Shown here piece after piece: positions 1 to 33,871 of a stretch of 64,000 bases of DNA (its first letter is position 1; every line of letters begins with the position of its first letter). The notes beneath the pieces are model-generated. The model made no database searches. It saw nothing but the letters and a program-made list of their open reading frames with translations, and was not told where the DNA came from. Position numbers and translations under genes: made by a program. Where the stretch lies: positions 32,001 to 96,000 of IMG/VR virus record IMGVR_UViG_3300037127_000056. One strand, 5' to 3'. Source of the stretch: a virus. Taxonomy: Duplodnaviria; Caudoviricetes.

Positions 1-192
1 GCCATTGTCTTCGCGGACCATGGCGCCGTCAGCATTCTCGGAAAACCCCTGATTCTGGAGTTCCTGCTTGAAGATCCGCTTGACGGGAACGCCGTGGATT
101 GGCACTGGTCCGAGATTGCCCTTGATGCGGTCGCTGGCGTCGATGACAGTCGTGCAGGTGTGCTTCGATTTGATCGTGATTTGATGACTCAT
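1..192 (-). CDS. Partial ORF running off the window edge; resembles an FtsH-ternary-system small accessory protein (fvmX5-like)
   Basis: Hand translation MSHQITIKSKHTCTTVIDASDRIKGNLGPVPIHGVPVKRIFKQELQNQGFSENADGAMVREDNG; preceded by TAAGGT-N6-ATG; directly downstream of the vWA/MoxR genes. Family resemblance is from memory. Confidence 0.5.
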   Translation of the reverse strand, partial: MSHQITIKSKHTCTTVIDASDRIKGNLGPVPIHGVPVKRIFKQELQNQGFSENADGAMVREDNG

Positions 193-243
193 GCGTCTAC
201 CTTACCTTGGTTCGATACAAAATTCAACGGGGGACTTCTGGGT

Positions 244-1509
244 TCAGATGAGAGCATTCAGCGCGGCGATGGCGGCGTTTTGCCACGCTCGTAGGGGTGA
301 GTGCCCGGCTTCACTAACGCGCTCGCCACAGACATGTGACGCCCGCTCGTCAACGGTAAGCCACGACTGACCGACCTCTGAATCGGCGGGCTCGTCATCT
401 TTCAAGGCCGGCGCCGATTCCCGCCGGCGGGACACGATATGGAGGATGTCGATTCGGGCGTCTTTGGGGTTCATGTCATCGGTATCGAAAGTACCCATGG
501 TGACGCTTGGCATGCCAAGCAAGCACAGCTCAAGGGCACCACGTTCCCGGTCCAAGTTCGCCGGCACTGCGACACGGATGTCCAGATCGTCGGCGGAAAG
601 CCACGTCGCCAGCCGCTCGCAACACACGCGGATCGTCGCAAGGGCAAGAATTCCACGTTGCCAATTGAGACTGGCGTCCTTCACGCGAGCACCGATGAGG
701 CTATCGTCTAGCCGGATCAAGACTTTGCGGCGGGTCCGCCACTGCCGATTGTCGTCGCGGTTGAAGTACAGAAGTTCATTCGTGACGAAGCGGGCAATGA
801 AAGGATCGATTTCCTCGTGGTCGTCGGCGAGCCCGAACTCGGACGGAACGATGCCGCTGGGACGGCCGTGATTGGAAAATCCGTCGTAGCCCCCAAACTC
901 GGAGCCGTCATCGTCGGGAACTGGCACCCGTGCGGCGTGGTCGGGGTATGGAACCAATCGGCCCGGCACGAGAGAAAAGATGGCGTCGCTTGCTGCCAGC
1001 ACGTGCGCGACGCCCATGCGCTTGCTTTCCGTGCTGAGAACGTCGAGGTGCTTGGCGGTGTAGGCATCCGATGGTAGGACTAGACGTCCACAGAGACGGG
1101 CTCCACGAATCGCCGCGCCTACGTCTTGGTCGAACTGGGCATCATTCGTATCACCCGGCATCAGCGCGTCTTCCACCGCTACGGCGGAGACTGGCCGCGA
1201 GGGAATACCGCAACGGCGCATGATCTGTTCCGCGATGATAGCCGCTTGGTCGGTGACCAAGCCGGCATTGATGATGCCTTGTATGTATGGTGAATTGCGG
1301 ATTCTGTCAATGATCTGGCGACGATACGCGATCACCGACGAATCATAGGACCCCGGAACGGGATGTCCCATTAGCACCGTCACGATGTCTCGTGCGATCG
1401 CGGGAACGTAGGCACGGTTACATACCTGGAGTGTCGCGCGAGCGATCGCAGCATCTTTCATGACGAATCCGCTGGTACGCAACCACGCGGCGTCGGATGA
1501 TCCGTTCAT
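244..1509 (-). CDS. vWA-related partner of MoxR (ternary-system inactive-vWA-like)
   Basis: GGYDGFSNHGRPSGIVPSEFG...FIARFVTNELLYFNRD then a beta strand VLIRLDDS; overlaps the MoxR stop by 4 nt. Confidence 0.65.
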   Translation of the reverse strand: MNGSSDAAWLRTSGFVMKDAAIARATLQVCNRAYVPAIARDIVTVLMGHPVPGSYDSSVIAYRRQIIDRIRNSPYIQGIINAGLVTDQAAIIAEQIMRRCGIPSRPVSAVAVEDALMPGDTNDAQFDQDVGAAIRGARLCGRLVLPSDAYTAKHLDVLSTESKRMGVAHVLAASDAIFSLVPGRLVPYPDHAARVPVPDDDGSEFGGYDGFSNHGRPSGIVPSEFGLADDHEEIDPFIARFVTNELLYFNRDDNRQWRTRRKVLIRLDDSLIGARVKDASLNWQRGILALATIRVCCERLATWLSADDLDIRVAVPANLDRERGALELCLLGMPSVTMGTFDTDDMNPKDARIDILHIVSRRRESAPALKDDEPADSEVGQSWLTVDERASHVCGERVSEAGHSPLRAWQNAAIAALNALI

Positions 1510-2477
1510 TTGGTCGAACCTCGGAGGTGGCGCGGGACTTCCGTTGCCAGCTGGTCAAGGGAATCCAGCGAGTCGCCACAGTACTTCAACAGTTCGAGAT
1601 CATTGCGGGTAACGACGTCGCCGCGTAGCAGCCACGCGTACGCCCGGATCATGGAATACATCTGGCCCAAGCGACGATCGGAGATGAAGATGTTGAGGTC
1701 GTGGCGGATGGTAGAAACCAAGCGCTTGAACTCGCGGAATTCGTCCTTGCCAAAGAGGGGGTCATTTTCACCGCTGGTACTGACCAAGTACTCGCGTACG
1801 GTGAGGACATCATCCAGACTACATGCAGTCGCCGCCCATGGCTTGCGGCCCGCGGCCTTGTGCCGGGCGATCTCGGCACCGGCATTGAGCAAGGCATCGA
1901 AGTGTTCGATTCTCAGAGGACGGACGACCATCTTGAGAGCGAACCGGTCCCGGAGGGCGCTGAGTTCGGAAGTCTGCGGGATGTCGTTGGTGGCGCCTAC
2001 CAGGACCTCCAGGGGGATGTCAATGGCCCGACCCTCCTCATACACCCGGTGATCGTTGATGGCACCAAGAAGGGCATTGAGGATTGCCGAGTTGCCCTTG
2101 AAGACCTCATCGAGGAACACCATCTTCGCCGTCGGGAGCATACCCTGCATGCGGCGAATCATGCGACCCTGCTTGAGGTTCATGATGTCCACCGGGCCAA
2201 GGACCTCGCCCGGCTCGGTGAACTTCGTCAGTAGTAGTTCGAAGTAGTCGTCATCTGAGACACCGATGGCGTCGCGGAACATCGTGATGGCCATCGATTT
2301 GCCGGTGCCCGGAGGGCCAGCAAGTAGCAACGGGTATCCCGCGACGGCGGAGACCGCAAGAAGATCGACGACCTCATCCCGCTGTACGAGGTTGGCCTTG
2401 ACGCCGTTGATGGCTGTGATGATGCGCTGCCGAGCCTCATTGGCCGCGGCATTGGACTTGGTTTTTTTCTTTCGCAT
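1506..2477 (-). CDS. MoxR/RavA-family AAA+ ATPase
   Basis: Walker A GPPGTGKS, Walker B FLDEVFKGNSAILNALL, GATN, ALRDRF. Confidence 0.92.
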   Translation of the reverse strand: MRKKKTKSNAAANEARQRIITAINGVKANLVQRDEVVDLLAVSAVAGYPLLLAGPPGTGKSMAITMFRDAIGVSDDDYFELLLTKFTEPGEVLGPVDIMNLKQGRMIRRMQGMLPTAKMVFLDEVFKGNSAILNALLGAINDHRVYEEGRAIDIPLEVLVGATNDIPQTSELSALRDRFALKMVVRPLRIEHFDALLNAGAEIARHKAAGRKPWAATACSLDDVLTVREYLVSTSGENDPLFGKDEFREFKRLVSTIRHDLNIFISDRRLGQMYSMIRAYAWLLRGDVVTRNDLELLKYCGDSLDSLDQLATEVPRHLRGSTK

Positions 2478-2510
2478 GGCGCCAACGCTACCAGGTCCCG
2501 CCGGCGGGAA

Positions 2511-3458
2511 TCAAGAGAATTCTGGGGTGTTCTCCACGATCATCGCATCGATGCCGGCAAAGTACGGGTCCAGCTCAGCGATCATTCTCAAGATGATGCG
2601 GCGACGTTTGGATGTCCGATGCAACTGGAGTGCCAACGTCCTCCAGTGCGTCATCACCCGGGACGTCGCAAAGAGATCCATAGCAGCGACGTGGACATCA
2701 TGGATCTCTGCCATTGTCGCCGCCCCCTCGGTGGGAACGAACTCATACACGTTCCCACGATGGACGTCATAGGCTTTGACGATGGCTCGGACGATCAGGC
2801 GGGCGAGGTCCTCACGCTCGGTGACTTGGCACGCCGTGAGGTAGCTGTGACGTGTGTTGGCCCCCGCTATGGCAGTGATTGGCCACGCGGAATCATACAC
2901 ACGCTGCTGAGCCGCCACGATGGAATCGGTGATGCGTGGCCCGAGGGCCGCGAGGATGATTGCCCCGCTCCCAGACATCCATGGGATCCACTGTTCCGGT
3001 TCTATGGAAATTCCACTATCGGGAAACATGAGTCCCGCGAGGGGATCGTTCTCCAACCGGTAGCGCGTCAACATGTCAACCCGCCGGTTCCCCGCACTCG
3101 CTACGAGGACCCCGAGTAAGGAATCCCCGGGGGTTTGCGGCGTGACGTGCAAGCTGTCGCCGTGCCGTGAGCGTCCGTTGAATCGGAAAATCTCGGTGGC
3201 GTAGCTGGAAAACTTGAGATCGCCGTGTGGGTACCGGTCCCATATCCGCCCGGCGGTATCGTCGAGCCCTTCTTCGGGTAACGCTCCATTCGTAAGCAAT
3301 ACCCGTGCCAGGCCCCTCTTTATCGTGTCGGTGATGCATGCCGCCCCACCTTCACTGAGGTTTTCAAACCCCAGCGCGCTGGGGTTGACCTCGCGGCCCA
3401 TGAATACCCGCTGGATGGCGTGAAGGAACGCAGCGTCCTGTTGTGTGACATTGTACAT
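2511..3458 (-). CDS. Hypothetical protein, FtsH-ternary-system accessory (fvmX6-like)
   Basis: CITDTIKRGLARVL...GRIWDRYPHGDLKFS resembles the recalled family pattern; immediately upstream of MoxR. Confidence 0.5.
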   Translation of the reverse strand: MYNVTQQDAAFLHAIQRVFMGREVNPSALGFENLSEGGAACITDTIKRGLARVLLTNGALPEEGLDDTAGRIWDRYPHGDLKFSSYATEIFRFNGRSRHGDSLHVTPQTPGDSLLGVLVASAGNRRVDMLTRYRLENDPLAGLMFPDSGISIEPEQWIPWMSGSGAIILAALGPRITDSIVAAQQRVYDSAWPITAIAGANTRHSYLTACQVTEREDLARLIVRAIVKAYDVHRGNVYEFVPTEGAATMAEIHDVHVAAMDLFATSRVMTHWRTLALQLHRTSKRRRIILRMIAELDPYFAGIDAMIVENTPEFS

Positions 3459-3542
3459 ATCGGCACCATATCATGACGGCGTCGAAGTGTTCAACCGCTA
3501 GTGCTCTTGTCTTCTGCGATACATTGGCGTATACATCGATGC

Positions 3543-5423: not shown

Positions 5424-5435
5424 TGGCCGGCATCG

Positions 5436-6152: not shown

Positions 6153-6182
6153 CGTAAGTATTATAGCACATACAATCACGGC

Positions 6183-6665: not shown

Positions 6666-6722
6666 TTCCGTAATGACTTTGTAAGGCACGGTACACTCAT
6701 GGCATGAGAAGGACGGTGGCGT

Positions 6723-7442: not shown

Positions 7443-7444
7443 CT

Positions 7445-7849: not shown

Positions 7850-7897
7850 TTCCCGCCGGCGGGAATCGTCTCGTCCCATAACCGTACACTCTAACCC

Positions 7898-10800
7898 ATG
7901 GCTCTCAATCAGCTCGGCCTGGGAATGCTCTTCACGGCGCGCGATGCGGCATCCGCGACCGTGGTAGGGCTAACCAAGAACGTCGCCGGCCTTGAGGGTC
8001 GCAGCAAAGCAACCGCGTCCGCACTTCAGACTGGTCTGGGTGGTGTCGCGGCCGTTGCCGTTGGTGCCGGGTTGTCCAAGTTGGTCAACCAGGCGGCGGA
8101 CTTCGAATTCGGCTTGGCAGCGGTCAAGAACATCGCGAACGCCACGGCGTCGGACATGGTAATCCTACGGGACGCGGCATTCGAAGCCGGGCTCAAAACG
8201 CAATTTTCGCCGACCCAAGCCGTCGAGGGTTTGCAGAACCTCGCCGCCGCGGGCTTCAGTGCAGCGAAATCGGCGCAACTCCTAGACCGGTCTCTGATCC
8301 TCGCACAGGCTGGACAGATCAGCGTCGCCCAATCCACGGCGACGATGGCTACCGCGATCAAGCTATTCAACCTCCAGGGCAAGGACCAAGAAACCCTGGT
8401 TGACAAGTTACTCAAAACGACATCGATGTTCAAGATCCATAGTGTCGATCTCGAACAAGGTCTCGCCAAAACGGCTGCCGCTGCCCTCTTGACCAACCAG
8501 TCTGTGGATGAGATGTTGCTCACCGTCGGTCTCATCAAGAACGTCTTCCCGGACGCTGGCGAGGCGGGTAACTCGGTGAGTCGAGCGATGCAGTCCCTTT
8601 CACAGAAAGCCGACAAAGTCAAAAAAGATTTTGGCGTTGATGTGCTGGATGCGAATGGTGCGTTCAAGCCAGCCCTGGATCTCTTTCTGGAACTAGATGA
8701 AGCGTCTGCTAAAGCATTTCCCAATGCCGCTAAACGCTCGGAAAAGTTGAGCAGACTCCTTGGTTCCTTCGGCATCAAAGGCTTTTCCGCGGCGGTGGGC
8801 TCGATCGACGAATTCGCGACGTCGAACAACTTGACGCGCAAGCAAGCCGCGGCACAGCTACGAGGGGACATTGCTGGTGCAGAAGGAACTGCCGATCAGT
8901 TCTTGGCGGGTCTCAATGCGACATTCAAGGGACAGAGCATCATCTTGGAAGGTGCCGTCCAGACCCTCGCCGTCGCCCTCGGGGAACCGCTCCTGAAAGT
9001 GTTGGTTCCAGCGGTCAAACGTGCCGCAGAATTCGTTGCCGACCTCGCCAGGGTTGTCAAAGATGCCAACCCTGAGTTCAAGCAAATGATCGCCCGCATC
9101 GCCCTCACGGCGTCGGCCGTCCTCGCATTCGGCGGCATCGTTGCGATCCTCCGTGTCGGTCTCGGCCTCTTGCTACCGGCCCTCAAAGCCGCTGCCATCG
9201 GGTTCGCTGGTACCATGCTCGCCGCCATCCCATTGATTGCGGTGATCGGCGGTGTCGCCCTTGTGGCCCGCGCCGCGGCGAAATCCATGGACACCAGCTT
9301 CGGGGACGCCAAGGCTGCGGTCACCGGGTTCTTCGAAGACGCCGTGCTCGCGGGGAAGGCGTTCGTCCAGCTCATGCGGACCGGTGAGTTCAGTGGGTCC
9401 GTCAAGCAAGAACTGAACCGGGCTGAGAACGCCGGCATCAAACGATTCGTCATCCGGCTCGGGATGTTTGCGCATCGGATCGAGAAATTCTTCGAAGGCG
9501 TCGCTGGCGGTATCAATGCAACCATGGGACGAGTCCAGCCCGCGCTCAAGAGAGCTGGGCAAAGTCTCATGGGCCTTGGCAAGGCCATGGGGTTTGTGTC
9601 TCAGAAAGGTGATGGTGTCGGTGACAGCCTTCCTGGTGCGTCTTTCTTCGAAGCAGGGGCATCCATTGGGCGCGCGCTTGCAAGTATATTCACTGGCGCC
9701 GTGGACGTGTTCGGTGTTGTGGTCGATGTTGCAGCTGGCTTTATCAGCCGCATGAAAGGAATTTTTGAGACATTCAGCTCCGTGTTCACCGGGCTGTTTG
9801 ACAACCTGACCGAACTCGGCAACGAGATCGGTGTAACTTTCATGACAGTTGGCCGATCTGTCAATGGCGGCGCTGGACCCGCTGTCAACGTTGGCAAGAC
9901 AATTGCAAACGCTATTGGCCTTGTCACGATCGCATTGGTCAAAGCTGCCTCCATTGCGACCAAGATTGCAACAAGCCTGTTGCAGGCATTCCGCCCAATC
10001 AGCTACGTTGTCTTACCGATCCTAAGATTCGTGGCTAACCATCTCACCGAGATCATCTTGATTTTGGTCGGTATCAAGATGGCACGTTCCCTCCGTAACC
10101 TGTCAAGTCTCGCGGAGGGATTTACGGCGATCAAAACTGCAGCATCGGGTGCCGCCGCTGCGAGTGCATCGTTTCTGAGGACTCAGAAGAAGGCTCAGCC
10201 GGGGCGTGACGAGTTTGGTCGGTTCCTCCCCAAGGGTGCTCAAGCACCTGGAGGGGCCCGCCGCGACGCGACTGGTAGATTCTTGCCAGCCGGGGGTGTC
10301 GCTACCGCCGCTGATAAGACGGAAAAAGCTCTTGGCAAACTCGCCGTTGCAGCCGAAGTTCTCAAAGTGGGCTTCATGGGTTTCGCTCTTGGTACTGTAT
10401 TGGATCAATGGCTTGATATCAGTGGGCAAGTTTCGGACATGCTTACCAACCGGTCTGGCCGTGGAGCGGGTACCGCCAAAGGGACGAAGTTTGATCCCAC
10501 GGGGCGGGCGGCCAACCTCCGTAAGTTCGCAAAGGATATCGAAACCGACATCCAAAAATCGCAAAAAACGATCCAAAGTCTTGCCGAAGCCAAGGTCGTT
10601 CTACCACAATTTCGTGCAACTGCGGAACGTGCCAAAACCGGACAACTGCAAGAATCGGACGTAGGGGTGCTGCGAAAGATTGGTGGTTTCAAGGAAGAAG
10701 AAGCACTCATTACTCCAGACAAGTTGAACGCCGCGCAGGGTGAGATCCGGGACGCCCTCCGCGAAGCCGCCGCCATCGAAGCCGCGCAACGGGTTGCCCA

Positions 10801-11047
10801 ATCCGAGGACCTCGCGAAGGGCTTCGAGGCCATTGATCTCGAAGCGAAGTTCCGGGATGCTAGCATCGCCGCCAATGCCGTGGAGCGTGACAAGCTTGCG
10901 GCGATGCTGTCTCGCGAGATCAGCCAGCTCACAAATCGCCCCATCACCATACAGATCGATCAGGAAACCCTCGCCGTCGCGGTGTCCGAGGGCCAGCGAC
11001 AAGACGCGGCGCGCGGATTCCAGGCGGTGGGGCCAGGTGAGGGTTAG
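7898..11047 (+). CDS. Tail tape measure protein (TP901 / PhageMin_Tail type)
   Basis: 1049 aa, Ala/Gly-rich helical; AADFEFGLAAVKNIANAT...TQFSPTQAVEGLQNLAAAGFS core; central hydrophobic helices. Confidence 0.93.
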   Translation: MALNQLGLGMLFTARDAASATVVGLTKNVAGLEGRSKATASALQTGLGGVAAVAVGAGLSKLVNQAADFEFGLAAVKNIANATASDMVILRDAAFEAGLKTQFSPTQAVEGLQNLAAAGFSAAKSAQLLDRSLILAQAGQISVAQSTATMATAIKLFNLQGKDQETLVDKLLKTTSMFKIHSVDLEQGLAKTAAAALLTNQSVDEMLLTVGLIKNVFPDAGEAGNSVSRAMQSLSQKADKVKKDFGVDVLDANGAFKPALDLFLELDEASAKAFPNAAKRSEKLSRLLGSFGIKGFSAAVGSIDEFATSNNLTRKQAAAQLRGDIAGAEGTADQFLAGLNATFKGQSIILEGAVQTLAVALGEPLLKVLVPAVKRAAEFVADLARVVKDANPEFKQMIARIALTASAVLAFGGIVAILRVGLGLLLPALKAAAIGFAGTMLAAIPLIAVIGGVALVARAAAKSMDTSFGDAKAAVTGFFEDAVLAGKAFVQLMRTGEFSGSVKQELNRAENAGIKRFVIRLGMFAHRIEKFFEGVAGGINATMGRVQPALKRAGQSLMGLGKAMGFVSQKGDGVGDSLPGASFFEAGASIGRALASIFTGAVDVFGVVVDVAAGFISRMKGIFETFSSVFTGLFDNLTELGNEIGVTFMTVGRSVNGGAGPAVNVGKTIANAIGLVTIALVKAASIATKIATSLLQAFRPISYVVLPILRFVANHLTEIILILVGIKMARSLRNLSSLAEGFTAIKTAASGAAAASASFLRTQKKAQPGRDEFGRFLPKGAQAPGGARRDATGRFLPAGGVATAADKTEKALGKLAVAAEVLKVGFMGFALGTVLDQWLDISGQVSDMLTNRSGRGAGTAKGTKFDPTGRAANLRKFAKDIETDIQKSQKTIQSLAEAKVVLPQFRATAERAKTGQLQESDVGVLRKIGGFKEEEALITPDKLNAAQGEIRDALREAAAIEAAQRVAQSEDLAKGFEAIDLEAKFRDASIAANAVERDKLAAMLSREISQLTNRPITIQIDQETLAVAVSEGQRQDAARGFQAVGPGEG

Positions 11048-11523
11048 CCCATGATGTCTTTGGTCACCCATTCTTCGTTGAACTTGGTGAGCCTGGATAC
11101 AATGGGGGACCAATCAACATCGAACGTGGTGTAGTTTGCCCGGCACCGTAGCACTTCGAGTGCCGTCATGTAGGCGGCACGCTTTGCGGTGACTTGGCCC
11201 ATCAGTGCGCGGATCGAACGGGCGATCACCCATGGTGCATTGGTTTCGATCTTGGATGCGTGCGCGCGGCGTACCGTGTCGGTCGCCGCTGCATCGGCCG
11301 CCTTTATGGCGGCATCCACCTTTTCGCGAGGCATCTTTCCTCGAATGTACAGCTCAGCGACATCTATTACATCGGTTGTTCGGAGGTCATGTACGTACTC
11401 TGTCAAGAGCTTGAGACACCAACATGCGAAAAGTTTGACGTCCCGAACAGGGATGTGGGTAAGAAGATTCCACACCATATCGGTGGGATGCGAATCATCG
11501 TTGGGCATTTGCGTACGATTCAT
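11044..11523 (-). CDS. Hypothetical phage protein (Imm5-like helical family)
   Basis: LFACWC...DLRTTDVIDVAELYIRG...AAADAAA pattern. Confidence 0.5.
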   Translation of the reverse strand: MNRTQMPNDDSHPTDMVWNLLTHIPVRDVKLFACWCLKLLTEYVHDLRTTDVIDVAELYIRGKMPREKVDAAIKAADAAATDTVRRAHASKIETNAPWVIARSIRALMGQVTAKRAAYMTALEVLRCRANYTTFDVDWSPIVSRLTKFNEEWVTKDIMG

Positions 11524-11647
11524 GGCACAACACTACATCACTTGGTTGACTCAATGCAAGGAAGTCCGTACACAATCTCGGATTCCCGCCAGCGGGAATC
11601 CTGTTACCCTCCTTGCACCTCACCCCACGCCATGCTAAATCCATGGG

Positions 11648-12388
11648 ATGCTTACATCGATCATCCTAGGAATCACTGCGGTTTGTTCTGTAAATTCAGC
11701 AACTTACGTCACCGCCAACACGACATTCTATTGGGTGGCAGAAGAACGCCACGAGTCCGAATCCGTCCCCTTGATGGACAAATCGTGCCAACCCATTGCA
11801 TCTGTGGGCCCCGAGTTTCGCGATGACCTCCGTCGCGAGGGGACCGGGCGCGCCAACGACGGCTCCACCTACAACGTCTCCGGCCAGTGTAGCTGCCTCC
11901 CCGACCACGACTACTGCTACCACCGGGTCAAGCATCGCTGGGGCACAGGAGCCGGCTCAGCGCCACTGAAGCCATTCCGTTCCGTTGCCGTGGATCCCCA
12001 GGTCATCCCCATCGGGTCTCGAATCTACATTGCTTCCCTCGCGGGGCTTGCCGTTCGTGCGGGGAATCGCACCACTACCCACGATGGTTGGGTCACAGCA
12101 ATTGACACCGGTGGTGGCGTCCACGGGTTTCAGATCGACATCTTCACGGGGTCTAAGGGGGCGTATCATCGGACGTGGCGTCGGATTGCTCCGACACCTG
12201 GCGTTGACGTCGCGATCTATCCACCGCATCGTACACCGGGATCAGAGCTTCAGTGCCACCCAACTCATACGCACGAACGAGCCGACGGATTTGACCCGGT
12301 GTCCATTCTTGGACGTGCAATTTCACGTATAGAGGCAGCGGCTCGACAAGCGCTCCGAAGAATTCGGGATCACAGGCACCCAACGTGA
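11648..12388 (+). CDS. 3D-domain (MltA-like) lytic transglycosylase with N-terminal signal; endolysin candidate
   Basis: PFRSVAVDPQVIPIGSRIYI...AIDTGGGVHGFQIDIFTG (three Asp); hydrophobic N-terminus MLTSIILGITAVC. Confidence 0.85.
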   Translation: MLTSIILGITAVCSVNSATYVTANTTFYWVAEERHESESVPLMDKSCQPIASVGPEFRDDLRREGTGRANDGSTYNVSGQCSCLPDHDYCYHRVKHRWGTGAGSAPLKPFRSVAVDPQVIPIGSRIYIASLAGLAVRAGNRTTTHDGWVTAIDTGGGVHGFQIDIFTGSKGAYHRTWRRIAPTPGVDVAIYPPHRTPGSELQCHPTHTHERADGFDPVSILGRAISRIEAAARQALRRIRDHRHPT

Positions 12389-26278: not shown

Positions 26279-26319
26279 ACATGAGATGATAGCAAATACC
26301 GTGCCGTAAACTCGTCATC

Positions 26320-26682
26320 ATGATCCGACTGACGAATGTACGGCGCCCTCCGGCACCGATCGAAATGGCGGGGCCGGCGACCACCGTCGTAAAGCGTCTC
26401 AGGTCGCAGGCTACCAAAACACAGTCCCGACAGAGGGCACTCTCTGGCCGTTCCGCAAAGCGGGGTGTCCGTCGAGAGCAAGTCCACGTCCCGGTGGGGA
26501 TCCGACTGAATCCCGGCGTGCCGGTCGAGGTACCCGACGAATGGCAGCACACCGCGGACTTCAAGCGGCTCGTGGTTCGCCTCCGTTGGGTGCGCGCAGA
26601 GTTCATCCCAGACGCGGATGATTCGGCTCCAAAGGCATCCCCGGTGAAGAAGTCTCGGAAGCGGAATAAGGGGGGCAACTGA
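26320..26682 (+). CDS. Small basic protein preceding the sheath
   Basis: Stop overlaps the sheath start; TAAACT-N7-ATG. Confidence 0.55.
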   Translation: MIRLTNVRRPPAPIEMAGPATTVVKRLRSQATKTQSRQRALSGRSAKRGVRREQVHVPVGIRLNPGVPVEVPDEWQHTADFKRLVVRLRWVRAEFIPDADDSAPKASPVKKSRKRNKGGN

Positions 26683-28886
26683 TGTCGAACCAATATCTTT
26701 CGCCTGGTGTCTACGCCAGGGAAGCTCAGCCGACACGGCGAGCATTCGATCCCGTCCAGACTTCGGTGGCCGGATTCGTCGGTGTCACGGAGCGCGGGCC
26801 TTTCACGCCCACCGAGGTCGTCGGTTTCGATGAGTTCGAGCGCATCTTCGGTGGGTTCATCACCGACAGCGAACTCCCACAATCGGTCCTGGCGTTCTTC
26901 CTCGGGGGCGGACAACGCGCCATCATCACTCGGGTGGTTCACTACACCGATGTTCTTGACCCGGCGACCAAGACGTCCGCAGCCGCTACCTTGAATCTGC
27001 TCACGGCAAGCGGTGCTCCCACGGCCGCCGTGATTGACGGAACCAATCCCGGACCATTCGACTTTGAACCCGGTGATCAGGTTGCGATTGATGTCGATGG
27101 TGGCGGTGCCGTTCTCGCAACGTTCGATGCCGCGCCCGGTGCCCAGACGTCGGTCAACTCCGAGGACTACGTCCTCGCCGATCTTCAGACCCTTGACGTA
27201 AGCGTTGACGGCGGTCTGGCGCAGACCATCACGTTCCTCACCGCGGAGTTCGCCAACATCGCGCTCGCGAAATCGGCCGAGGTCGCGGCGGTCATCAATG
27301 CCAAGATCTCGGGGGCGTTCGCCAGCGGTGCCGGTGGCGTCGTGACCATCACGTCGGATACTCGGGGCACGGCGTCAAGCGTCGAGATTACCGGTGGTAC
27401 CGCGGCGGCGGCGTTCGCATTCCCGGCGGGTGCTGCTGTTGGTACCGGTGACGTCGCGGATATCGATGCCGTGACGGGCGCTGAGGTCAAGACGGTCGTC
27501 GAAGCCGATGTTCCTGGTACCACTGTGACGGTCCTTGGTTCCGGGGCGGTGCGGCTGGAGAGCAACACCACGGGCCCGGCGTCCACGCTTCAGGTCGCCA
27601 GCTCCGCGATCCAGATCGCCTTGGGTTGGACCACCGCTACGGTAAGCGGGACGTCCGGTGCTGCGGCGCCAACGGTACAGATTGACGGCAAGACCGACGG
27701 TGAGTATGCCAACACCTTGCAGGTGCGCATCGAAGATGCCACCAACGGGGACGCCGAGTTCTTCAACCTCTCGGTGGAAGACAACGGGCTCGTTCTCGAA
27801 CGGTTCGCCAATCTCACCATGGACCCCCTGAATAGCGGGTTCGTTGAGGCGGCGCTTACCGCGAGCGACTACATCTCGGCGACTGACCTCGAACTGGCAG
27901 CGGCGGACACCCGCCCCGCCAACGGGTTGCTGGGACCACTCACCGGCGGTGATGATGGTCTCGTGGGTCTTGCCGATACCGACTTTCTCGGTGGTCGCAG
28001 CGCCAATGGTGCTACCGGTCTCCGGGTACTTGACCAGACTGTGACGTCCATCTTGTGTGTCCCTGGCCAGACGTCGGCGGTACTCCAGAATGGGATCGTC
28101 GAATACTGCGAGGTGATTCGAGGCGGCGCCATCTTCGGGATCTTGGATCCGCCGGCGGGTCTCAATGAGGATGAGGTCGTCACTCACTTCAAGGCGACCA
28201 ACGCCCTCACCGGGCTCAGCGAATTCGTGATCACCTACTGGCCGCGCCCGCTCATCATCAATCCCGATGAGGTGGTGTTTGGGAATGCCGCCAACATCGC
28301 GATCCCGGTGAGTGGTGCTGTTGCCGGGCGCTATGCCGCCACGGACAACCTGTTTCCCGGTGGCATCTACCAGTCCCCGGCGGGTGACAACGAGCGCGGG
28401 CAACTCCGGGGCGTCGTCGGCGTCGAGGAACCGCGGGTCCGCGAGCGGGCGGTTCAAGACAAGGTCTACCCCGAGCTGATCAACCCCATCACGATCAACG
28501 ACGACGGCGTCGTGTACATCAATGGGACGAAGACCTTGCGCGCCGATAGCAATTTCCCGCGGGTGGCTCAGCGTCGCGGGGCGATTTTCATCGAGCAAAC
28601 CATCATCAAGGGCTTGACCCCGTTCTTGCACTTCCCCAATGACCAAAGCCTCCGTATCGAGGTCACGCGGGTCGTGGAACAGTTCTTGCTTTCGCAGCTC
28701 AAGATCGATGCCTTCCGGAGCAAGGATCCATCCACCGCGTACATCGTCAACTTCGGGGAGGCACTCAACCCCCCGGACAAGATCGAGGCCGGCGAGTTGA
28801 ACGGCAAGATTGGCCTCGCGTTCGCCACACCCGCGGACTTCATCATCATCGAGTTCTCACGCTTGTCGGCGGACTCCACGATCTAA
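26682..28886 (+). CDS. Contractile tail sheath protein
   Basis: YLSPGVYARE, VAGFVGVTERGP, FFLGGG, YWPR, SGAVAGRYA, SPAG, INPI, PADFIIIEF. Confidence 0.95.
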   Translation: MSNQYLSPGVYAREAQPTRRAFDPVQTSVAGFVGVTERGPFTPTEVVGFDEFERIFGGFITDSELPQSVLAFFLGGGQRAIITRVVHYTDVLDPATKTSAAATLNLLTASGAPTAAVIDGTNPGPFDFEPGDQVAIDVDGGGAVLATFDAAPGAQTSVNSEDYVLADLQTLDVSVDGGLAQTITFLTAEFANIALAKSAEVAAVINAKISGAFASGAGGVVTITSDTRGTASSVEITGGTAAAAFAFPAGAAVGTGDVADIDAVTGAEVKTVVEADVPGTTVTVLGSGAVRLESNTTGPASTLQVASSAIQIALGWTTATVSGTSGAAAPTVQIDGKTDGEYANTLQVRIEDATNGDAEFFNLSVEDNGLVLERFANLTMDPLNSGFVEAALTASDYISATDLELAAADTRPANGLLGPLTGGDDGLVGLADTDFLGGRSANGATGLRVLDQTVTSILCVPGQTSAVLQNGIVEYCEVIRGGAIFGILDPPAGLNEDEVVTHFKATNALTGLSEFVITYWPRPLIINPDEVVFGNAANIAIPVSGAVAGRYAATDNLFPGGIYQSPAGDNERGQLRGVVGVEEPRVRERAVQDKVYPELINPITINDDGVVYINGTKTLRADSNFPRVAQRRGAIFIEQTIIKGLTPFLHFPNDQSLRIEVTRVVEQFLLSQLKIDAFRSKDPSTAYIVNFGEALNPPDKIEAGELNGKIGLAFATPADFIIIEFSRLSADSTI

Positions 28887-28934
28887 CCCCACGGTTTCCC
28901 GCCGGCGGGAAACGCCACGGGGAGAGGAGACAAC

Positions 28935-29802: not shown

Positions 29803-29911
29803 GGTGTAGCCACTCTACATGAGCCACTTGGCCATGTCAAGCCCGTCGAACACAAAAATCGAACATCGTCTGAGTTGATCTCACCGCGCCCGTTGTGGTA
29901 GGTTCGCCCCC

Positions 29912-31097: not shown

Positions 31098-31153
31098 CCC
31101 GTAAGCCTATACGAATCCATCGTAAAGGGCAACCCTGAGCTACATTCATTGAT

Positions 31154-31738
31154 ATGTCGGATTGGGTATGTGGGTGCGGTGCCGACCGAATTTTGCTTGA
31201 CTTCAGGGGGCGGCCGTTCCGAGGATGTTCGAGGTACCCGGAGTGCAAGGACACGGCTCGCGGCACCCCATGGGATCGCGCAATCTCAGTCTACGCGAAG
31301 CGGGCGCCACGGCTTGCCAACGGTCGTGTCGTCGCCGGCCTGGACTACGGCTACACGGTGTGCAAGATTTTGCGCGCCGCGGAGTCTCGTCTCGTGATCG
31401 TGACATTTTCAATCGGCGATGATGGCATGGTTGATGCATTGGTGAACGATGCCATTGACCGCGGCGTTGATGTCGAAGTATGGGCCGGCGGTGTCGCCCG
31501 GAAACAAGGTCAACGGCTCAGTGATCTCGGCGCCCGCGTATGGTTACCGAAGCCGGGAACCAACTTGCATGCCAAGTTCATCGTCGCCGATGGTCTCGTC
31601 GCGGTCGTCGGTTCCGCGAACCTGGCGCAGACCAGTTTGACCCGCAACCTAGAGGTCGGCGTGATCTCGACCAAGGATGTCTCGATGTGGGCGGGGCAAT
31701 GGCGGCGCGACGCCGTCCGACGATTCCGCGTGCTTTGA
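31154..31738 (+). CDS. Phospholipase D-family (single HKD) nuclease with N-terminal topoisomerase-type Zn ribbon
   Basis: CGCG...FRGCSRYPEC; LHAKFIVADG...VGSANL...NLEVG. Confidence 0.85.
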   Translation: MSDWVCGCGADRILLDFRGRPFRGCSRYPECKDTARGTPWDRAISVYAKRAPRLANGRVVAGLDYGYTVCKILRAAESRLVIVTFSIGDDGMVDALVNDAIDRGVDVEVWAGGVARKQGQRLSDLGARVWLPKPGTNLHAKFIVADGLVAVVGSANLAQTSLTRNLEVGVISTKDVSMWAGQWRRDAVRRFRVL

Positions 31739-31777
31739 CCTTGATTTCCCGCCGGCGGGAATGCTAGTGTCGCCGGT

Positions 31778-33871
31778 ATGAGTAACAAACGCTACATCAA
31801 AGAGCGGGACCTTCCGGCAGAACTCGAACCCATCGACGCCGTCACGATCGGCTATGGTCCCCAACTGACGCGCGCCGCGGATGCGTTGGTCCGCGGCCAG
31901 CACGTCTTGATCTCAACGGACTTGATGGTCTCGACGTTCGTATCACAGATCATCTCGGACCGTCTCAAGAATCAAGACCAGAGTCTCGCGGACCGCATCC
32001 GCTACATCGACTCGGCACCCCTACCAGAGATGGAAGGTGCCGCACCGTCTCAGGTCATGATGGCAAAGATTCGAATGGCCATCAACAACCCGCCCGCGGA
32101 CGATTCGCCACCGATCATCATGATCCCGTTCCTCGGTGTGTTGGTGTCCGGCTCCGGCAGCCTCACCATGGAAGCTCGGCAGTTCGCGCAGCTCGTGGGC
32201 GAGAACCCCGAGGAAGCGATCTGGTTCGCGTGCATGGACCGGAACATCGTCATCCCGGATTCGTTGTCGAAGATCTTTGGCCTCCATGAGCGTTGCGAGG
32301 GTATCGCCCGTGAGCGGTTGCCGCAACTGGTGACCCGCGAGCACGCCCGCAAGTTCTCGGCGGCACCGAATCGGTTCGACCCATTCGGCCTTCACCAGCT
32401 CGTGTCGGGCCTCAACCCGTTTTCTCTGATCAAGGCCCTCGACGCCGTCAACGTGGCGCCGTACATCGATCCCGATGGGGCGTACGACCAGCTCGCGGAA
32501 GCGGCCACCGACGCCGATGTCGAGCGCCCCGACATCGGTCTCGACGACGACATCGGCGGATACCAAGACGTCAAGGACAAGCTCAACGACGAGATCATCT
32601 CGTTCCTGGAGCGGCTCGACGAAATCGATGACCCCGTGGAGTACAAAAAGACCGAATCGATGATCCCCCGCGGCATCCTCCTACATGGCCCCCCGGGCAC
32701 CGGCAAGACGCTGTTCGCCAAAGCGCTCGCCACGGCCATCAATGGCGTCTGCATCGTCGTCAACGGCCCGGAGCTGAAGTCCAAGTTCGTTGGCGAGTCG
32801 GAAGAAAACATCCGACGGGTTTTCCGTCGAGCCCGCCGCAATGCACCCGCAGTGATCGTGTTCGACGAGATCGATAGCCTCGCCCCGGCTCGGGACATGT
32901 ACTCCGGCGGCAACGGGGTCACCCACGCCATGGTCAATCAGCTACTCACCGAACTCGACGGGTTCCGCAAGGATGAACTGGTGTTCGTCATCGGCACCAC
33001 AAACTTCCCGTCATCCCTGGACCCCGCCCTGCTTCGGGACGGACGGCTCGGACATCAGATCTATGTCGGGTACCCCGATGACGACGCCCGCCGCGCGATC
33101 CTGAATCTGTACAACGACAAGCAAGAGCTGGAGATCGATGACGACGCCATGACGACTCTTGTCCGGCGCACCGCAGGTCCAACTCCCAACACCGGCACCC
33201 GATACACCGGGGCTGCACTCGCCGGCCTGTGTAGCGCCCTGGCTCGCTACCGCATCCGCGAGCGCGTCAAAGGGGTGACCACGAAGGAACACATCGACGC
33301 CCTCTTCGATTCGATGGTCGATCGCCCGGATCTCAACGAGGGGGAGCGTCGTACCGTCGCCGTCCACGAAGCCGGTCATGCCGTCGTCGCACTGCACCTG
33401 GAGCACGCGCCGCCGATCAGCCGTGTGACGATCGAGGGGGATGTCTCCGGCGCTCTGGGCTACGTGGCGTTCGATGACCCCAAGGACAAGTATGTCCAGA
33501 CCAAGCCCGCACTACTCGACCGGATATGCACCATGCTCGGTGGCCGGGCCGCTGAGGAGGTTGTACTCAAGGTGGTGTGCGCCGGTGCCAGCGACGACAT
33601 CGCCCGCGCCACGCGACTGGCCACCGCCATGGTCACTCAACTGGGGATGGGTGCAAGCCTCGCAATGACTGGCGACACCAACGTCCCGGCGAGTGTCAGT
33701 GAAGCCCGCCACGCCGAGATCGAAGGTATCCTCAAGGCGCAGCTCACGCGCGCCAAGGGCCTGATCGAAACCTACGCCGCGGAGCACGCCGGCATGGTCG
33801 AGGTCCTACTCAACAACGGGTCCTACGAGGTCGGCGGCGACGGTGAGCTGCGCGTCGAGAAGGGGGCGTAA
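31778..33871 (+). CDS. Soluble FtsH-like AAA+ ATPase / M41 metalloprotease (no TM helices)
   Basis: GPPGTGKT, VFDEID, TNFPSSLDPALLRDGRL, HEAGH, LGGRAAEEV, GASDDI; ~250-aa hydrophilic N-terminus. Confidence 0.92.
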   Translation: MSNKRYIKERDLPAELEPIDAVTIGYGPQLTRAADALVRGQHVLISTDLMVSTFVSQIISDRLKNQDQSLADRIRYIDSAPLPEMEGAAPSQVMMAKIRMAINNPPADDSPPIIMIPFLGVLVSGSGSLTMEARQFAQLVGENPEEAIWFACMDRNIVIPDSLSKIFGLHERCEGIARERLPQLVTREHARKFSAAPNRFDPFGLHQLVSGLNPFSLIKALDAVNVAPYIDPDGAYDQLAEAATDADVERPDIGLDDDIGGYQDVKDKLNDEIISFLERLDEIDDPVEYKKTESMIPRGILLHGPPGTGKTLFAKALATAINGVCIVVNGPELKSKFVGESEENIRRVFRRARRNAPAVIVFDEIDSLAPARDMYSGGNGVTHAMVNQLLTELDGFRKDELVFVIGTTNFPSSLDPALLRDGRLGHQIYVGYPDDDARRAILNLYNDKQELEIDDDAMTTLVRRTAGPTPNTGTRYTGAALAGLCSALARYRIRERVKGVTTKEHIDALFDSMVDRPDLNEGERRTVAVHEAGHAVVALHLEHAPPISRVTIEGDVSGALGYVAFDDPKDKYVQTKPALLDRICTMLGGRAAEEVVLKVVCAGASDDIARATRLATAMVTQLGMGASLAMTGDTNVPASVSEARHAEIEGILKAQLTRAKGLIETYAAEHAGMVEVLLNNGSYEVGGDGELRVEKGA

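What the first reader, a model, noticed from the sequence alone, without database searches (positions are those of the whole stretch)
1..33871. Phage-encoded MoxR-vWA-FtsH 'ternary' conflict-system-like module, split over two loci
Seen: a minus-strand cluster 3458->1 (315-aa ORF, MoxR AAA+, vWA-like ORF with GGY..SNHG...PSE...ELLYF, small partial ORF), and at 31778-33871 an FtsH-like AAA+/M41 protease with a soluble N-terminus instead of membrane helices. Established: this combination (MoxR, inactive vWA, soluble FtsH, small 'fvmX' accessory proteins) defines the FtsH ternary NTP-dependent conflict systems described computationally in complex bacteria such as planctomycetes and myxobacteria. 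From memory, 2511-3458 resembles fvmX6 and 1-192 resembles fvmX5. Inference: a phage has captured a putative host defence/proteostasis machine and may use it as counter-defence, for superinfection exclusion or to remodel host proteins.
Basis: partly seen in the sequence, partly recalled or inferred. Interest (0 to 1): 0.9.

Follow-up and report, generated by a model that had tools for sequence, protein, structure and literature searches.

The report
Phage-borne FtsH ternary conflict system
A 116-kb tailed phage carries a complete, intact-looking copy of the 'FtsH ternary system', a multi-enzyme machine so far only predicted, as an anti-virus defence, in myxobacteria, planctomycetes and actinobacteria, so a virus can own this machine too and its purpose can now be tested from the virus side.

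Summary
It lies in a single 116,337-bp virus record, rated 100% complete by CheckV, with terminase, portal, prohead protease, sheath and tape measure, and no integrase.

A 7.8-kb minus-strand block encodes fvmX6, MoxR, ivWA, fvmX5, an 86-aa X3-like ORF, a 1030-aa fvmX7 protein and a radical-SAM enzyme. All named families score above Pfam cut-offs.

About 28 kb away lies a membrane-less FtsH-like protein with three parts: an inactive AAA+ domain, an active AAA+ domain and an M41 protease. Its nearest full-length relatives (41-45% identity) sit inside bacterial FtsH-ternary loci of Myxococcota and Planctomycetota. In a tree it falls in their clade, apart from housekeeping and jumbo-phage FtsH.

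Catalytic motifs are intact. Codon use is phage-like. The phage-wide palindrome occurs inside the block. The MoxR and FtsH genes share a near-identical palindrome-bearing leaderless promoter.

No fvmX7, ivWA or ternary-type FtsH N-domain was found in 50,697 phage records or in IMG/VR.

Identity is firm. Function is inferred, as is the direction of transfer. This scan had met the system before only in bacteria.

The parts
2511..3458 (-). fvmX6-family protein, 315 aa, with its own leaderless promoter (TTGAAC-18-TATGGT-6-ATG at 3465-3494)
   Evidence: Pfam PF20004 fvmX6, 32.7 bits against a cut-off of 27. 25% identity to the fvmX6 genes of loci L007/L008. Promoter.
2485..2514 (-). MoxR promoter: TTGATT, an 18-nt spacer holding the palindrome CCCGCCGGCGGG, TAGCGT, then 7 nt to the ATG. 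The -35 hexamer overlaps the fvmX6 stop codon.
   Evidence: Read directly from the sequence. One of only 3 of the 25 leaderless-type promoters in the genome that carry the palindrome. The promoter pattern occurs 25 times in the real genome against 0.8 in simulated sequence.
1506..2477 (-). MoxR-clade AAA+ ATPase, 323 aa. Walker A is GPPGTGKS and Walker B is FLDE. The stop overlaps the ivWA start by 4 nt.
   Evidence: Pfam bpMoxR 190.5 bits, AAA_5, AAA_lid_8. 43% identity to the MoxR of ternary locus L006. Alignment A10.
244..1509 (-). ivWA protein, 421 aa. It has an all-helical N-domain (1-180), a conserved linker motif (206-256) and a degenerate vWA domain (260-420). The MIDAS position reads D268-x-S270-x-I272.
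   Evidence: Pfam PF19997, 49.8 bits against a cut-off of 35. 380 relatives by exhaustive HMMER, the best at 36% identity, with top hits next to bpMoxR genes. AF2 model at pLDDT 77.5. Best structural match is the NorD vWA domain, Z 7.8, among many vWA domains. MIDAS columns.
1..192 (-). First 64 codons of fvmX5. The whole gene is 187 aa and runs to 371 nt left of the window (L004:11629-12192). Further left on the same strand lie an 86-aa X3-like ORF (L004:11367-11627), the 1030-aa fvmX7 protein (L004:8274-11366) and a 199-aa radical-SAM enzyme (L004:7678-8277).
   Evidence: fvmX5 at 60.1 bits and fvmX7 at 109.3 bits. The rSAM is 41-49% identical to the rSAM genes of five bacterial ternary loci and its Cx3Cx2C motif is intact. 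For the X3-like ORF, position, size and a short T.K..IIS...D...L..EH.D motif match, but hhalign gives only E 0.065.
31741..31770 (+). FtsH promoter: TTGATT, an 18-nt spacer holding the palindrome TCCCGCCGGCGGGA, TAGTGT, then 7 nt to the ATG. It has the same design as the MoxR promoter.
   Evidence: Read directly from the sequence and found in the genome-wide promoter scan.
31778..33871 (+). Ternary-type soluble FtsH, 697 aa. The N-terminal AAA+-like domain (about 17-250) has no P-loop. The active AAA+ domain (about 252-513) has GPPGTGKT and FDEID. The M41 protease domain (519-693) has HEAGH.
   Evidence: Pfam AAA and Peptidase_M41. End-to-end alignment at 41-44% identity with 20 bacterial ternary FtsH proteins. 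AF2 model at pLDDT 81.6. Tandem type-II AAA+ structures span residues 17-514 (Rix7, Z 22.8, 453 residues aligned), and the FtsH protease domain 2di4_B matches at Z 19.7, rmsd 1.6 A. The tree clade has SH-aLRT 100.

Best explanation
The phage encodes a complete, functional copy of the 'simple', radical-SAM subtype of the FtsH ternary system. The copy is adapted to the phage genome.

Shown by the tests here:
- Seven family-assigned components are present and intact: fvmX6, MoxR, ivWA, fvmX5, fvmX7, the radical-SAM enzyme and the tandem-AAA+/M41 FtsH.
- A probable eighth component, an X3-like small acidic peptide, is also present.
- All these genes are resident in a virulent-looking myovirus genome.

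Inferred:
- The two loci act together. In bacteria these genes form one neighbourhood. In the phage, the MoxR-ivWA unit and the distant FtsH gene are driven by near-identical leaderless promoters. Each promoter's 18-nt spacer holds the phage's own palindrome, which could serve as a common operator.

Most likely mechanism (inferred from the families):
- The MoxR hexamer, with its degenerate-MIDAS vWA adaptor, remodels or loads a large fvmX5/6/7 scaffold.
- The radical-SAM enzyme is of the small glycyl-radical-activase-like type. No NrdD is present in the genome. It modifies the small peptide or a scaffold protein.
- The soluble double-ring FtsH unfolds and cleaves a substrate to release or activate the effector.

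My committed reading is that the phage runs this ATP-gated machine during infection as a weapon of its own. The target is either rival phages or mobile elements that co-infect the cell, or host proteins. I do not read it as a decoy or a virion chaperone.

I put identity as a phage-borne ternary system at about 0.9. The conflict or takeover role is about 0.55 of the total.
For: Identity:
- Pfam hits are above the curated cut-offs.
- The nearest FtsH homologues (41-45% identity, 95-100% coverage) are encoded inside bacterial loci of the form rSAM-fvmX6-fvmX5-FtsH-X3analog-fvmX7(-MoxR...ivWA).
- tblastn of the phage proteins against those loci gives rSAM 41-48%, MoxR 43%, FtsH 43%, ivWA 29%, fvmX5 29%, fvmX7 23-27% and fvmX6 25% identity.
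- In the tree, the phage protein and 28 FtsH proteins of the same family (four checked, all in ternary loci) form one clade (SH-aLRT 100, stem length 2.0). The clade excludes Salmonella FtsH, two jumbo-phage FtsH and ten IMG/VR FtsH.

Intact enzymes:
- FtsH has Walker A, Walker B and HExxH.
- MoxR has GPPGTGKS and FLDE.
- The rSAM has C29-x3-C33-x2-C36.
- The fold of FtsH and of ivWA agrees with these assignments.

Residence in the phage:
- The record is a 100%-complete virus record with TerL, portal, protease, sheath and tape measure.
- There is no integrase or resolvase.
- The palindrome occurs 28 times in the genome. Three copies lie inside the block and one in the FtsH promoter.
- Codon-use distance to the phage gene pool is 0.02-0.07 for the large ternary genes. 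The phage median is 0.062, and bacterial FtsH genes score 0.16.

Co-regulation:
- The MoxR and FtsH promoters are near-identical.
- The leaderless promoter class is real: 25 in the genome, 0 in the reversed sequence and 0.8+/-0.9 in simulated sequence.

The rSAM is not an RNR activase: no NrdD is present and the phage RNR is class I/II type.
Against: - No expression or functional data exist for this phage, and none for any FtsH ternary system. Only the 2020 prediction paper names the system. No PADLOC model hits the specific components.
- FtsH lies 28 kb from the rest, so joint action rests on bacterial synteny and promoter similarity only.
- The X3-like peptide is not a significant homologue (Pfam gives nothing; hhalign E 0.065).
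- The phage MoxR lacks the GxxxTAKS P-loop seen in the bacterial ternary MoxRs.
- A virulent phage has less obvious need for an immunity-type system than a prophage does.
- The host is unknown.
Confidence: 0.55

Rival explanations
1. The machine serves the phage's own morphogenesis or proteostasis. The MoxR-vWA pair and the FtsH-like unfoldase/protease would fold, assemble or trim virion or replication proteins. This is as proposed for the MoxR-vWA pairs of Acidianus two-tailed virus and of group 2.2 jumbo phages.
For: - MoxR-vWA pairs in viruses have been interpreted as virion-assembly chaperones (PMC7824862; PMC7159879 section 8).
- The FtsH gene lies among structural genes, between the sheath (26682-28886) and the portal (44688-46430).
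- Other large phages carry their own FtsH.
Against: - All seven assigned components are orthologous to a bacterial system that sits in ordinary chromosomal contexts with no virion genes nearby.
- Three kin phages, which share the sheath at 48-53% identity, have no FtsH-like gene within 10 kb of the sheath, the place where this phage has one. Their whole genomes could not be read.
- The fvmX proteins and the rSAM have no counterpart in PHROGs or in 50,697 phage records.
Confidence: 0.17
2. Counter-defence by mimicry. The phage copies would intermix with, titrate or mis-activate the host's own FtsH ternary system, acting as dominant-negative or decoy subunits, so that the host system cannot fire.
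For: - The ternary-type FtsH N-domain was found in 225 bacterial species genomes, and the 80 best matches are nearly all Myxococcota and Planctomycetota. A phage of such hosts would meet the system.
- The phage proteins are divergent (23-49% identity) but keep the family architecture.
- The MoxR P-loop differs from the bacterial TAKS form.
Against: - A decoy rarely needs all seven or eight components.
- Every catalytic motif (two ATPases, the protease, the rSAM cluster) is intact rather than degraded.
- The host is unknown, and it is not known whether it carries the system.
Confidence: 0.1
3. Artefact or dead cargo. The block would be host DNA joined to the phage by mis-assembly, or a recently acquired passenger with no role.
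For: - The record is a single contig without terminal repeats (it is classed 'linear').
- The FtsH gene has a somewhat high GC3 of 0.80, against 0.67+/-0.06 for the phage's genes.
- No sequenced relative shares the block.
Against: - The two loci are 28 kb apart and both are embedded between phage genes.
- The phage-wide palindrome lies in the fvmX7 gene, the ivWA gene and both promoters.
- Leaderless phage-type promoters precede fvmX6, MoxR, fvmX5, the X3-like ORF and FtsH.
- Codon use matches the phage.
- All ORFs are open and their motifs intact.
- Divergence from every bacterial homologue (at most 49% identity) argues against a recent capture.
Confidence: 0.04

Closest known systems
FtsH ternary system, 'simple' radical-SAM subtype (Kaur, Burroughs, Iyer, Aravind 2020, eLife 9:e52696; Pfam fvmX1-7, ivWA, bpMoxR)
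   Same: It has the same protein families:
- a MoxR ATPase
- a degenerate vWA protein with a helical N-domain
- a soluble FtsH with an inactive and an active AAA+ domain plus M41
- fvmX5, fvmX6 and fvmX7
- a small activase-like radical-SAM enzyme
- a small ORF directly upstream of fvmX7
Identity to bacterial loci is 23-49% across the components.
   Different: - It is carried by a virus, not by a myxobacterium, planctomycete or actinobacterium.
- The gene order is rearranged: X6-MoxR-ivWA-X5-X3like-X7-rSAM.
- FtsH is displaced by 28 kb.
- The genes are cut into at least five leaderless transcription units.
- The MoxR P-loop is the canonical GPPGTGKS instead of G.PGTAKS.
- The X3-analog is not detectable by HMM.
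Housekeeping FtsH (TIGR01241) and the FtsH genes of jumbo phages (PA5oct/PAC2-like, MaAM05)
   Same: A classical-clade AAA+ module followed by an M41 zinc protease with HExxH. Identity is 31-35% over residues of about 155-680.
   Different: - It has no transmembrane helices.
- It has an extra N-terminal AAA+-like domain.
- It scores 281 bits against the 600-bit cut-off of TIGR01241.
- It forms a separate, fully supported clade.
Viral MoxR-vWA chaperone pairs (Acidianus two-tailed virus tail development; group 2.2 jumbo phages, Iyer et al. 2021, PMC7824862)
   Same: A virus-encoded MoxR ATPase next to a vWA co-chaperone. tblastn of the phage MoxR finds these ATPases at 25-31% identity.
   Different: Those pairs stand alone, or the vWA is fused to a metallopeptidase. 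They have no fvmX proteins, no rSAM and no FtsH. Here the vWA is of the ivWA family and its MIDAS motif is degenerate.
NorQ-NorD and RavA-ViaA (MoxR ATPase with vWA adaptor that remodels a client complex)
   Same: The best structural match of the ivWA C-domain is the NorD vWA domain in complex with NorQ (Z 7.8, 146 residues aligned). NCBIfam places the MoxR nearest RavA (120.7 bits, below the cut-off).
   Different: The clients there are respiratory enzymes and metal insertion. There is no protease, rSAM or fvmX partner, and the structural Z-score is only modest.

Membership tests
FtsH ternary system (Kaur et al. 2020) | MoxR-clade AAA+ ATPase of the ternary (bpMoxR) type | tested here: met
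   PF20030, 190.5 bits against a cut-off of 27. 43% identity to the MoxR of ternary locus L006 and 37% to that of L080.
FtsH ternary system (Kaur et al. 2020) | Highly divergent vWA partner that may lack the metal-binding residues. In the simple subtype it is fused to a large all-alpha N-terminal domain. | tested here: met
   PF19997 ivWA, 49.8 bits against a cut-off of 35. The model has helices at 1-180 and an alpha/beta domain at 260-420. The best structural matches include many vWA domains, at modest Z of about 7-8. The MIDAS position reads D-x-S-x-I, and the third position is never Ser in 30 relatives. The Pfam ivWA-helical_N model itself did not hit.
FtsH ternary system (Kaur et al. 2020) | Third component with two FtsH-type AAA+ domains. 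The N-terminal one is inactive (no P-loop or Walker B) and the second is active. | tested here: met
   Tandem type-II AAA+ structures (p97, Rix7, NVL, Pex1/6) align across model residues 17-514 at Z 20-23. There is no GxxGxGK[ST] in residues 1-250, while GPPGTGKT and FDEID are present in the second domain. Profile comparison of the two domains by sequence found nothing.
FtsH ternary system (Kaur et al. 2020) | System-specific accessory proteins (Pfam fvmX families) | tested here: met
   fvmX5 at 60.1 bits, fvmX6 at 32.7 bits and fvmX7 at 109.3 bits, all above their cut-offs. fvmX1 and fvmX2 are absent, as they are in the bacterial loci L005-L008.
FtsH ternary system (Kaur et al. 2020) | Small fvmX3-analog protein directly upstream of fvmX7 | tested here: inconclusive
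   An 86-aa ORF (74 aa from the promoter-proximal ATG) fills that exact position and abuts the fvmX7 start. It is 26-29% identical in alignment A1. However, there is no Pfam hit at E 10 and hhalign gives E 0.065.
FtsH ternary system (Kaur et al. 2020) | Simple subtype: a distinctive radical-SAM enzyme as the effector-maturation component | tested here: met
   The 199-aa Fer4_12 protein is 41-49% identical to the rSAM genes that flank fvmX6 in loci L005-L008 and L080. The Cx3Cx2C motif is intact. It is NrdG/PFL-activase-like but below the cut-offs. There is no NrdD in the genome.
FtsH ternary system (Kaur et al. 2020) | All components encoded in one conserved gene neighbourhood | tested here: not met
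   FtsH lies about 28 kb from the other genes. The link is kept only through a shared promoter design. Bacterial loci also vary: L005 and L007 show no MoxR or ivWA in the part of the locus that could be read.
FtsH ternary system (Kaur et al. 2020) | MoxR P-loop variant GxxxTAKS (stated in the paper as frequent, not universal) | tested here: not met
   The phage has GPPGTGKS, while the bacterial L006 and L080 have G[KP]PGTAKS.
FtsH ternary system (Kaur et al. 2020) | Acts as an anti-invader conflict system | not testable with these tools
   This is a computational prediction only. No experimental paper was found and PADLOC has no model for the specific components.
Housekeeping FtsH (TIGR01241 / PRK10733) | Two N-terminal transmembrane helices, a single AAA+ module and a score above the equivalog cut-off | tested here: not met
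   It scores 281 bits against a cut-off of 600. It has no TM-like segments, unlike the Salmonella and PAC2 controls. It forms a separate clade.

The most novel reading that the evidence does not exclude
FtsH ternary systems may not be purely cellular immune systems. They could be machines that viruses also wield and help to spread. The phage copy, which the best tree places outside all sampled bacterial copies, would then represent an old viral lineage of the system. It would be used by a lytic phage to kill or exclude competitors, or to reprogram the host, through a radical-SAM-modified peptide released by a soluble FtsH.
Probability: 0.15. Interest if true: 0.8.

Novelty: new variant of a known kind. 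Interest (0 to 1): 0.62.

Why it matters
The FtsH ternary system is one of the large NTP-dependent 'conflict systems' predicted in 2020 for multicellular bacteria. I found no experimental test of it.

A full set of its genes with intact catalytic motifs, in a complete virulent-type phage genome, matters in three ways.
- It shows the machine is not confined to cells.
- It questions the simple reading that it is 'anti-phage immunity'.
- It offers a compact test bed of 9.9 kb of coding sequence. The pieces are already cut into separately promoted units, two of which share a candidate operator.

If the phage uses the system against rivals or against the host, it would join the short list of elaborate defence-type systems turned to viral use. 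It would also give a first handle on what the fvmX proteins, the degenerate vWA and the activase-like radical-SAM enzyme do.

Tried and rejected
- Complex prediction of the FtsH N-domain (1-260) with fvmX5 gave no verdict (score 0.00, controls not run). It says nothing either way.
- Profile comparison of the FtsH N-domain with its own active AAA+ domain found nothing. The AAA+ nature of the N-domain rests on the predicted structure.
- The X3-like ORF had no Pfam hit and no significant hhalign match.
- Generic E. coli-type promoter and terminator scans were at chance level. A pattern tailored to the phage's leaderless promoters was strongly enriched instead.
- Searches for other viral carriers found none.
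  - tblastn of fvmX7 and ivWA against 50,697 phage records gave no match.
  - IMG/VR scans with FtsH, fvmX7, the FtsH N-domain alignment, the fvmX7 alignment and the ivWA alignment gave no relatives.
  - A generic FtsH scan of IMG/VR gave only matches that start at residue 231 or later.
  - Caveats: the IMG/VR scans depend on short exact peptide patterns, and records of this genome or of very near ones may be masked.
- Whole-genome checks of kin phages were impossible. Their records are not held and only +/-10 kb around the sheath gene could be read.
- Relatives of a virus record cannot be drawn, so the host was not determined.
- The placement of the phage FtsH inside the ternary clade is unresolved. 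AU tests give p 0.43 and 0.36 for the two alternatives.
- The NrdG (class III RNR activase) reading of the rSAM was rejected. There is no NrdD and the rSAM has strong identity to the ternary-locus rSAMs.

Full report
WHAT THE WINDOW IS

The window is bases 32001-96000 of a single 116,337-bp contig. The genome tool classes it as a virus record, linear, 100% complete by CheckV.

PHROGs and Pfam identify the main phage genes:
- tape-measure protein, 7898-11047
- tail sheath, 26682-28886
- portal, 44688-46430
- prohead protease, 48824-50338
- large terminase, 61064-63586

The left arm encodes a class I/II-type ribonucleotide reductase, a sigma-70-family factor and a clamp-like protein. No tyrosine or serine integrase is present, so the phage looks virulent.

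The nearest relatives of the sheath protein are 45-54% identical. They sit on metagenomic contigs, several of about 100-140 kb. No deposited phage is close: the sheath is at most 27% identical and the terminase at most 28%. Records of this genome or very near ones may be masked in those searches.

THE OBSERVATION

- fvmX6, 2511-3458
- bpMoxR/AAA_5, 1506-2477
- ivWA, 244-1509
- the start of fvmX5, 1-192
- AAA plus Peptidase_M41, 31778-33871

Reading leftwards out of the window (L004 is genome 20001-39000), fvmX5 is a complete 187-aa gene scoring 60.1 bits. It is followed on the same strand by three more genes:
- an 86-aa ORF
- a 1030-aa protein with an fvmX7 domain (109.3 bits)
- a 199-aa Fer4_12 radical-SAM protein

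The block therefore spans genome 27678-35458 (7.8 kb). It reads fvmX6 / MoxR-ivWA / fvmX5 / X3-like-fvmX7-rSAM. MoxR-ivWA and fvmX7-rSAM overlap by four bases, and the X3-like stop abuts the fvmX7 start.

IS THE PROTEASE OF THE TERNARY KIND?

Yes, on four lines of evidence.

1. Homologues. In a 5.8-billion-protein search, the full-length homologues of about 700 aa are 41-45% identical over 95-100% of the length. Those that carry a name come from Myxococcota, Planctomycetota and unclassified Proteobacteria, with one alphaproteobacterial MAG. Four of them were looked up. All four lie inside loci of the form rSAM-fvmX6-fvmX5-FtsH-fvmX3analog-fvmX7, with MoxR and ivWA further on in two of them.

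2. Alignment. The alignment runs end to end and conserves Walker A (GPPGTGKT), Walker B (FDEID), an aromatic pore-loop residue and HEAGH.

3. Tree. The tree used Salmonella FtsH, two jumbo-phage FtsH, a staphylococcal contig and ten IMG/VR FtsH as outsiders. The phage protein joins the 28 bacterial FtsH proteins of this family in one clade with SH-aLRT 100 on a stem of 2.0 substitutions per site. Within that clade it branches first (support 90). AU tests do not reject a position with either bacterial subclade (p 0.43 and 0.36).

4. Structure. The AlphaFold model has pLDDT 81.6.
- Tandem type-II AAA+ ATPases (p97, Rix7, NVL, VAT, Pex1/6) match across residues 17-514 at Z 20-23, with up to 462 residues aligned.
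- The FtsH protease domain 2di4_B matches residues 519-693 at Z 19.7, rmsd 1.6 A.
- The first domain has no P-loop. This is the two-AAA+ architecture that Kaur et al. give as the hallmark of the ternary FtsH (PMC7159879 section 21).
- Hydrophobicity controls confirm that the protein has no membrane anchor.
- It fails the NCBIfam FtsH equivalog cut-off, 281 against 600 bits.

THE OTHER COMPONENTS

tblastn of all phage ORFs against the bacterial loci links exactly the expected genes and no others:

| Component | Identity to bacterial loci |
|---|---|
| rSAM | 41-48% |
| MoxR | 43% |
| FtsH | 43% |
| ivWA | 29% |
| fvmX5 | 29% |
| fvmX7 | 23-27% |
| fvmX6 | 25% |

- rSAM. It keeps the C-x3-C-x2-C cluster motif and a family-specific RRWIGSxNQ motif. 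It resembles glycyl-radical activases (NrdG, PFL-AE) below their cut-offs. The phage has no NrdD, so it is not an RNR activase.
- ivWA. An exhaustive HMMER search of 1.84 billion representatives gives 380 relatives, the best at 36% identity. The top hits lie beside bpMoxR genes. Its model shows a helical N-domain, a poorly modelled but highly conserved linker motif, and an alpha/beta domain. The best structural match of that domain is the NorD vWA domain bound to the MoxR ATPase NorQ, among many vWA domains at Z of about 7. The MIDAS position reads D-x-S-x-I and is variable in the family, which fits an 'inactive' vWA.
- MoxR. It has canonical GPPGTGKS, whereas the two bacterial ternary MoxRs examined have G.PGTAKS, the variant noted by Kaur et al..
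- The 86-aa ORF. It occupies the place of fvmX3-analog and shares a short motif and an acidic tail. It is not a statistically supported homologue.
- fvmX1 and fvmX2 are absent, as in the bacterial loci compared.

IS THE BLOCK REALLY PHAGE DNA?

Four observations say it is.

1. Position. The two loci are 28 kb apart and each lies between phage genes.

2. Palindrome. The palindrome CCCGCCGGCGGG, usually extended to TCCCGCCGGCGGGA, occurs 28 times along the contig from 3.6 to 111.8 kb. None is expected by chance. Copies lie in the fvmX7 gene, the ivWA gene, the MoxR promoter and the FtsH promoter.

3. Promoters. The genome uses a distinctive promoter class: TTGAnn, 16-19 nt, TAnnnT, then 5-9 nt to the start codon. 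The real genome has 25 such sites, the reversed sequence has 0, and Markov simulations give 0.8+/-0.9. These promoters precede fvmX6, MoxR, fvmX5, the X3-like ORF and FtsH.

4. Composition. GC content and codon use of the ternary genes fall inside the phage's own distribution. Bacterial FtsH homologues are far from it. FtsH has a somewhat raised GC3.

Together with divergence of at least 51% from every known homologue, this excludes a mis-join and argues for long residence.

WHY SPLIT, AND DO THE HALVES BELONG TOGETHER?

Three kin phages have a collinear morphogenesis module of about 22 kb: protease, capsid, sheath, tube, tape measure, baseplate. In this phage the homologous genes are scattered from genome 39 to 105 kb on both strands. 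The genome has been extensively rearranged into small, separately promoted units. Displacement of FtsH fits that pattern.

None of the three kin loci has an FtsH near the sheath.

The MoxR and FtsH promoters are near-identical. Both read TTGATT, an 18-nt spacer filled by the palindrome, TAG[C/T]GT, then 7 nt to the ATG. Only one other of the 25 promoters shares this design. I read this as co-regulation through a common operator. That is an inference. An earlier first-stage note of this scan pointed to the same similarity, and I verified it on the sequence.

HOW RARE IS IT?

No fvmX7 or ivWA match exists in 50,697 deposited phage records. PHROGs has no family for fvmX5, fvmX6, fvmX7 or ivWA.

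Seven scans of IMG/VR (2.9 million contigs) were run.
- Six found no relative of the query: FtsH, fvmX7, the FtsH N-domain alignment, the fvmX7 alignment, the ivWA alignment, and the tail sheath, the last used to look for kin phages.
- The seventh, with the full-length FtsH alignment, found only generic FtsH and AAA+ matches beginning at residue 231 or later.

By contrast, the N-domain alignment finds 225 bacterial species genomes. The 80 best are almost all Myxococcota and Planctomycetota, at 30-37% identity.

The literature library holds one paper that names the system, the original prediction. It does not mention phage carriers. The same group's survey of jumbo phages reports a different MoxR-vWA pair, proposed to act in virion assembly, and no FtsH.

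Earlier follow-ups in this scan met the system in planctomycete chromosomes only.

WHAT IT MOST LIKELY DOES

Shown:
- A complete set of ternary-system genes with intact catalytic motifs is stably resident in a virulent-type phage.
- Two of its units share a promoter design.

Inferred from the families:
- An ATP-gated assembly in which MoxR and its vWA adaptor remodel a large fvmX scaffold.
- The activase-like rSAM modifies the small peptide or a scaffold protein.
- The double-ring soluble FtsH unfolds and cleaves a substrate to release or activate an effector.

I consider a role in conflict the most likely. The target would be co-infecting rivals or host proteins. My reasoning is that the whole active system, not a fragment, has been kept and re-wired to phage promoters.

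My estimates for the alternatives are:

| Reading | Estimate |
|---|---|
| Conflict or takeover role | about 0.55 |
| Virion assembly or proteostasis | about 0.17 |
| Decoy against a host copy | about 0.10 |
| Artefact or dead cargo | about 0.04 |

None of these is tested here.

The direction of transfer is open.

VERDICT

The finding is real and correctly identified. It is a new variant of a known, computationally predicted kind: the first viral carrier I could find, with rearranged and split gene order and phage-type regulation. Interest is moderate to high. The identity is solid, but the biology is entirely untested and the host is unknown.

Noticed in passing
whole genome; in the window at 419, 2496, 5308, 7851, 17371, 19573, 22650, 28897, 30718, 31747, 34683, 39901, 44290, 46456, 50982, 54039, 60165, 63615: The 14-bp perfect palindrome TCCCGCCGGCGGGA (core CCCGCCGGCGGG) occurs 28 times in the 116-kb genome. 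None is expected by chance. Most copies lie inside genes and a few lie in promoter spacers. Its function is unknown; it could be an operator, a methylation or restriction site, or a recombination site.
   Followed up: partly
genome 39-105 kb, compared with kin loci L083, L084 and L085: Structural genes that are collinear in one module of about 22 kb in kin phages (protease, capsid-like, sheath, tube, tape measure, baseplate) are scattered over about 65 kb on both strands in this phage. The genome is unusually scrambled.
   Followed up: partly
whole genome, e.g. window 192, 2477, 3458, 13698, 29912, 31778, 37481: About 25 genes start 5-9 nt after a TAnnnT box that lies 16-19 nt downstream of TTGAnn. 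This is a leaderless-mRNA promoter architecture (25 sites real, 0.8 in simulated sequence).
   Followed up: yes
L003:1788-1934 (-), which is genome 97788-97934: This is the third promoter with the TTGATT-palindrome design. It precedes a 48-aa very hydrophobic ORF that is antisense to a plus-strand operon. It may be a small membrane peptide or an antisense RNA co-regulated with MoxR and FtsH.
   Followed up: no
window 31154-31738 (+): A PLD-family nuclease-like protein (PLDc_2; best PADLOC and NCBIfam matches are to the DISARM protein DrmC) with an N-terminal zinc ribbon lies immediately upstream of the FtsH promoter. It was not found in the bacterial ternary loci examined.
   Followed up: partly
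L001:4459-5895 (+): The phage encodes a 478-aa sigma-70-family factor with regions 2, 3 and 4. It may read the phage's own promoter class.
   Followed up: no
L004:2781-6551 (-): A 1256-aa fusion of a DUF6094 methyltransferase with a ResIII/DEAD helicase lies just downstream of the ternary block, after a 295-aa ORF of unknown family. It looks like a polyvalent or anti-restriction protein.
   Followed up: no
L080 (bacterial locus), gene at 10001-13012: A second class of ternary-locus FtsH, about 980-1000 aa, has an extra AAA+ module. It forms the sister clade of the 700-aa class and sits in an equivalent locus: rSAM, fvmX5, X3-analog, a giant protein, MoxR.
   Followed up: partly
window 41374-42504 (+): A further 376-aa AAA+ ATPase gene in the phage shows weak similarity to the AAA module of the bacterial ternary FtsH genes (25-27% identity).
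   Followed up: no
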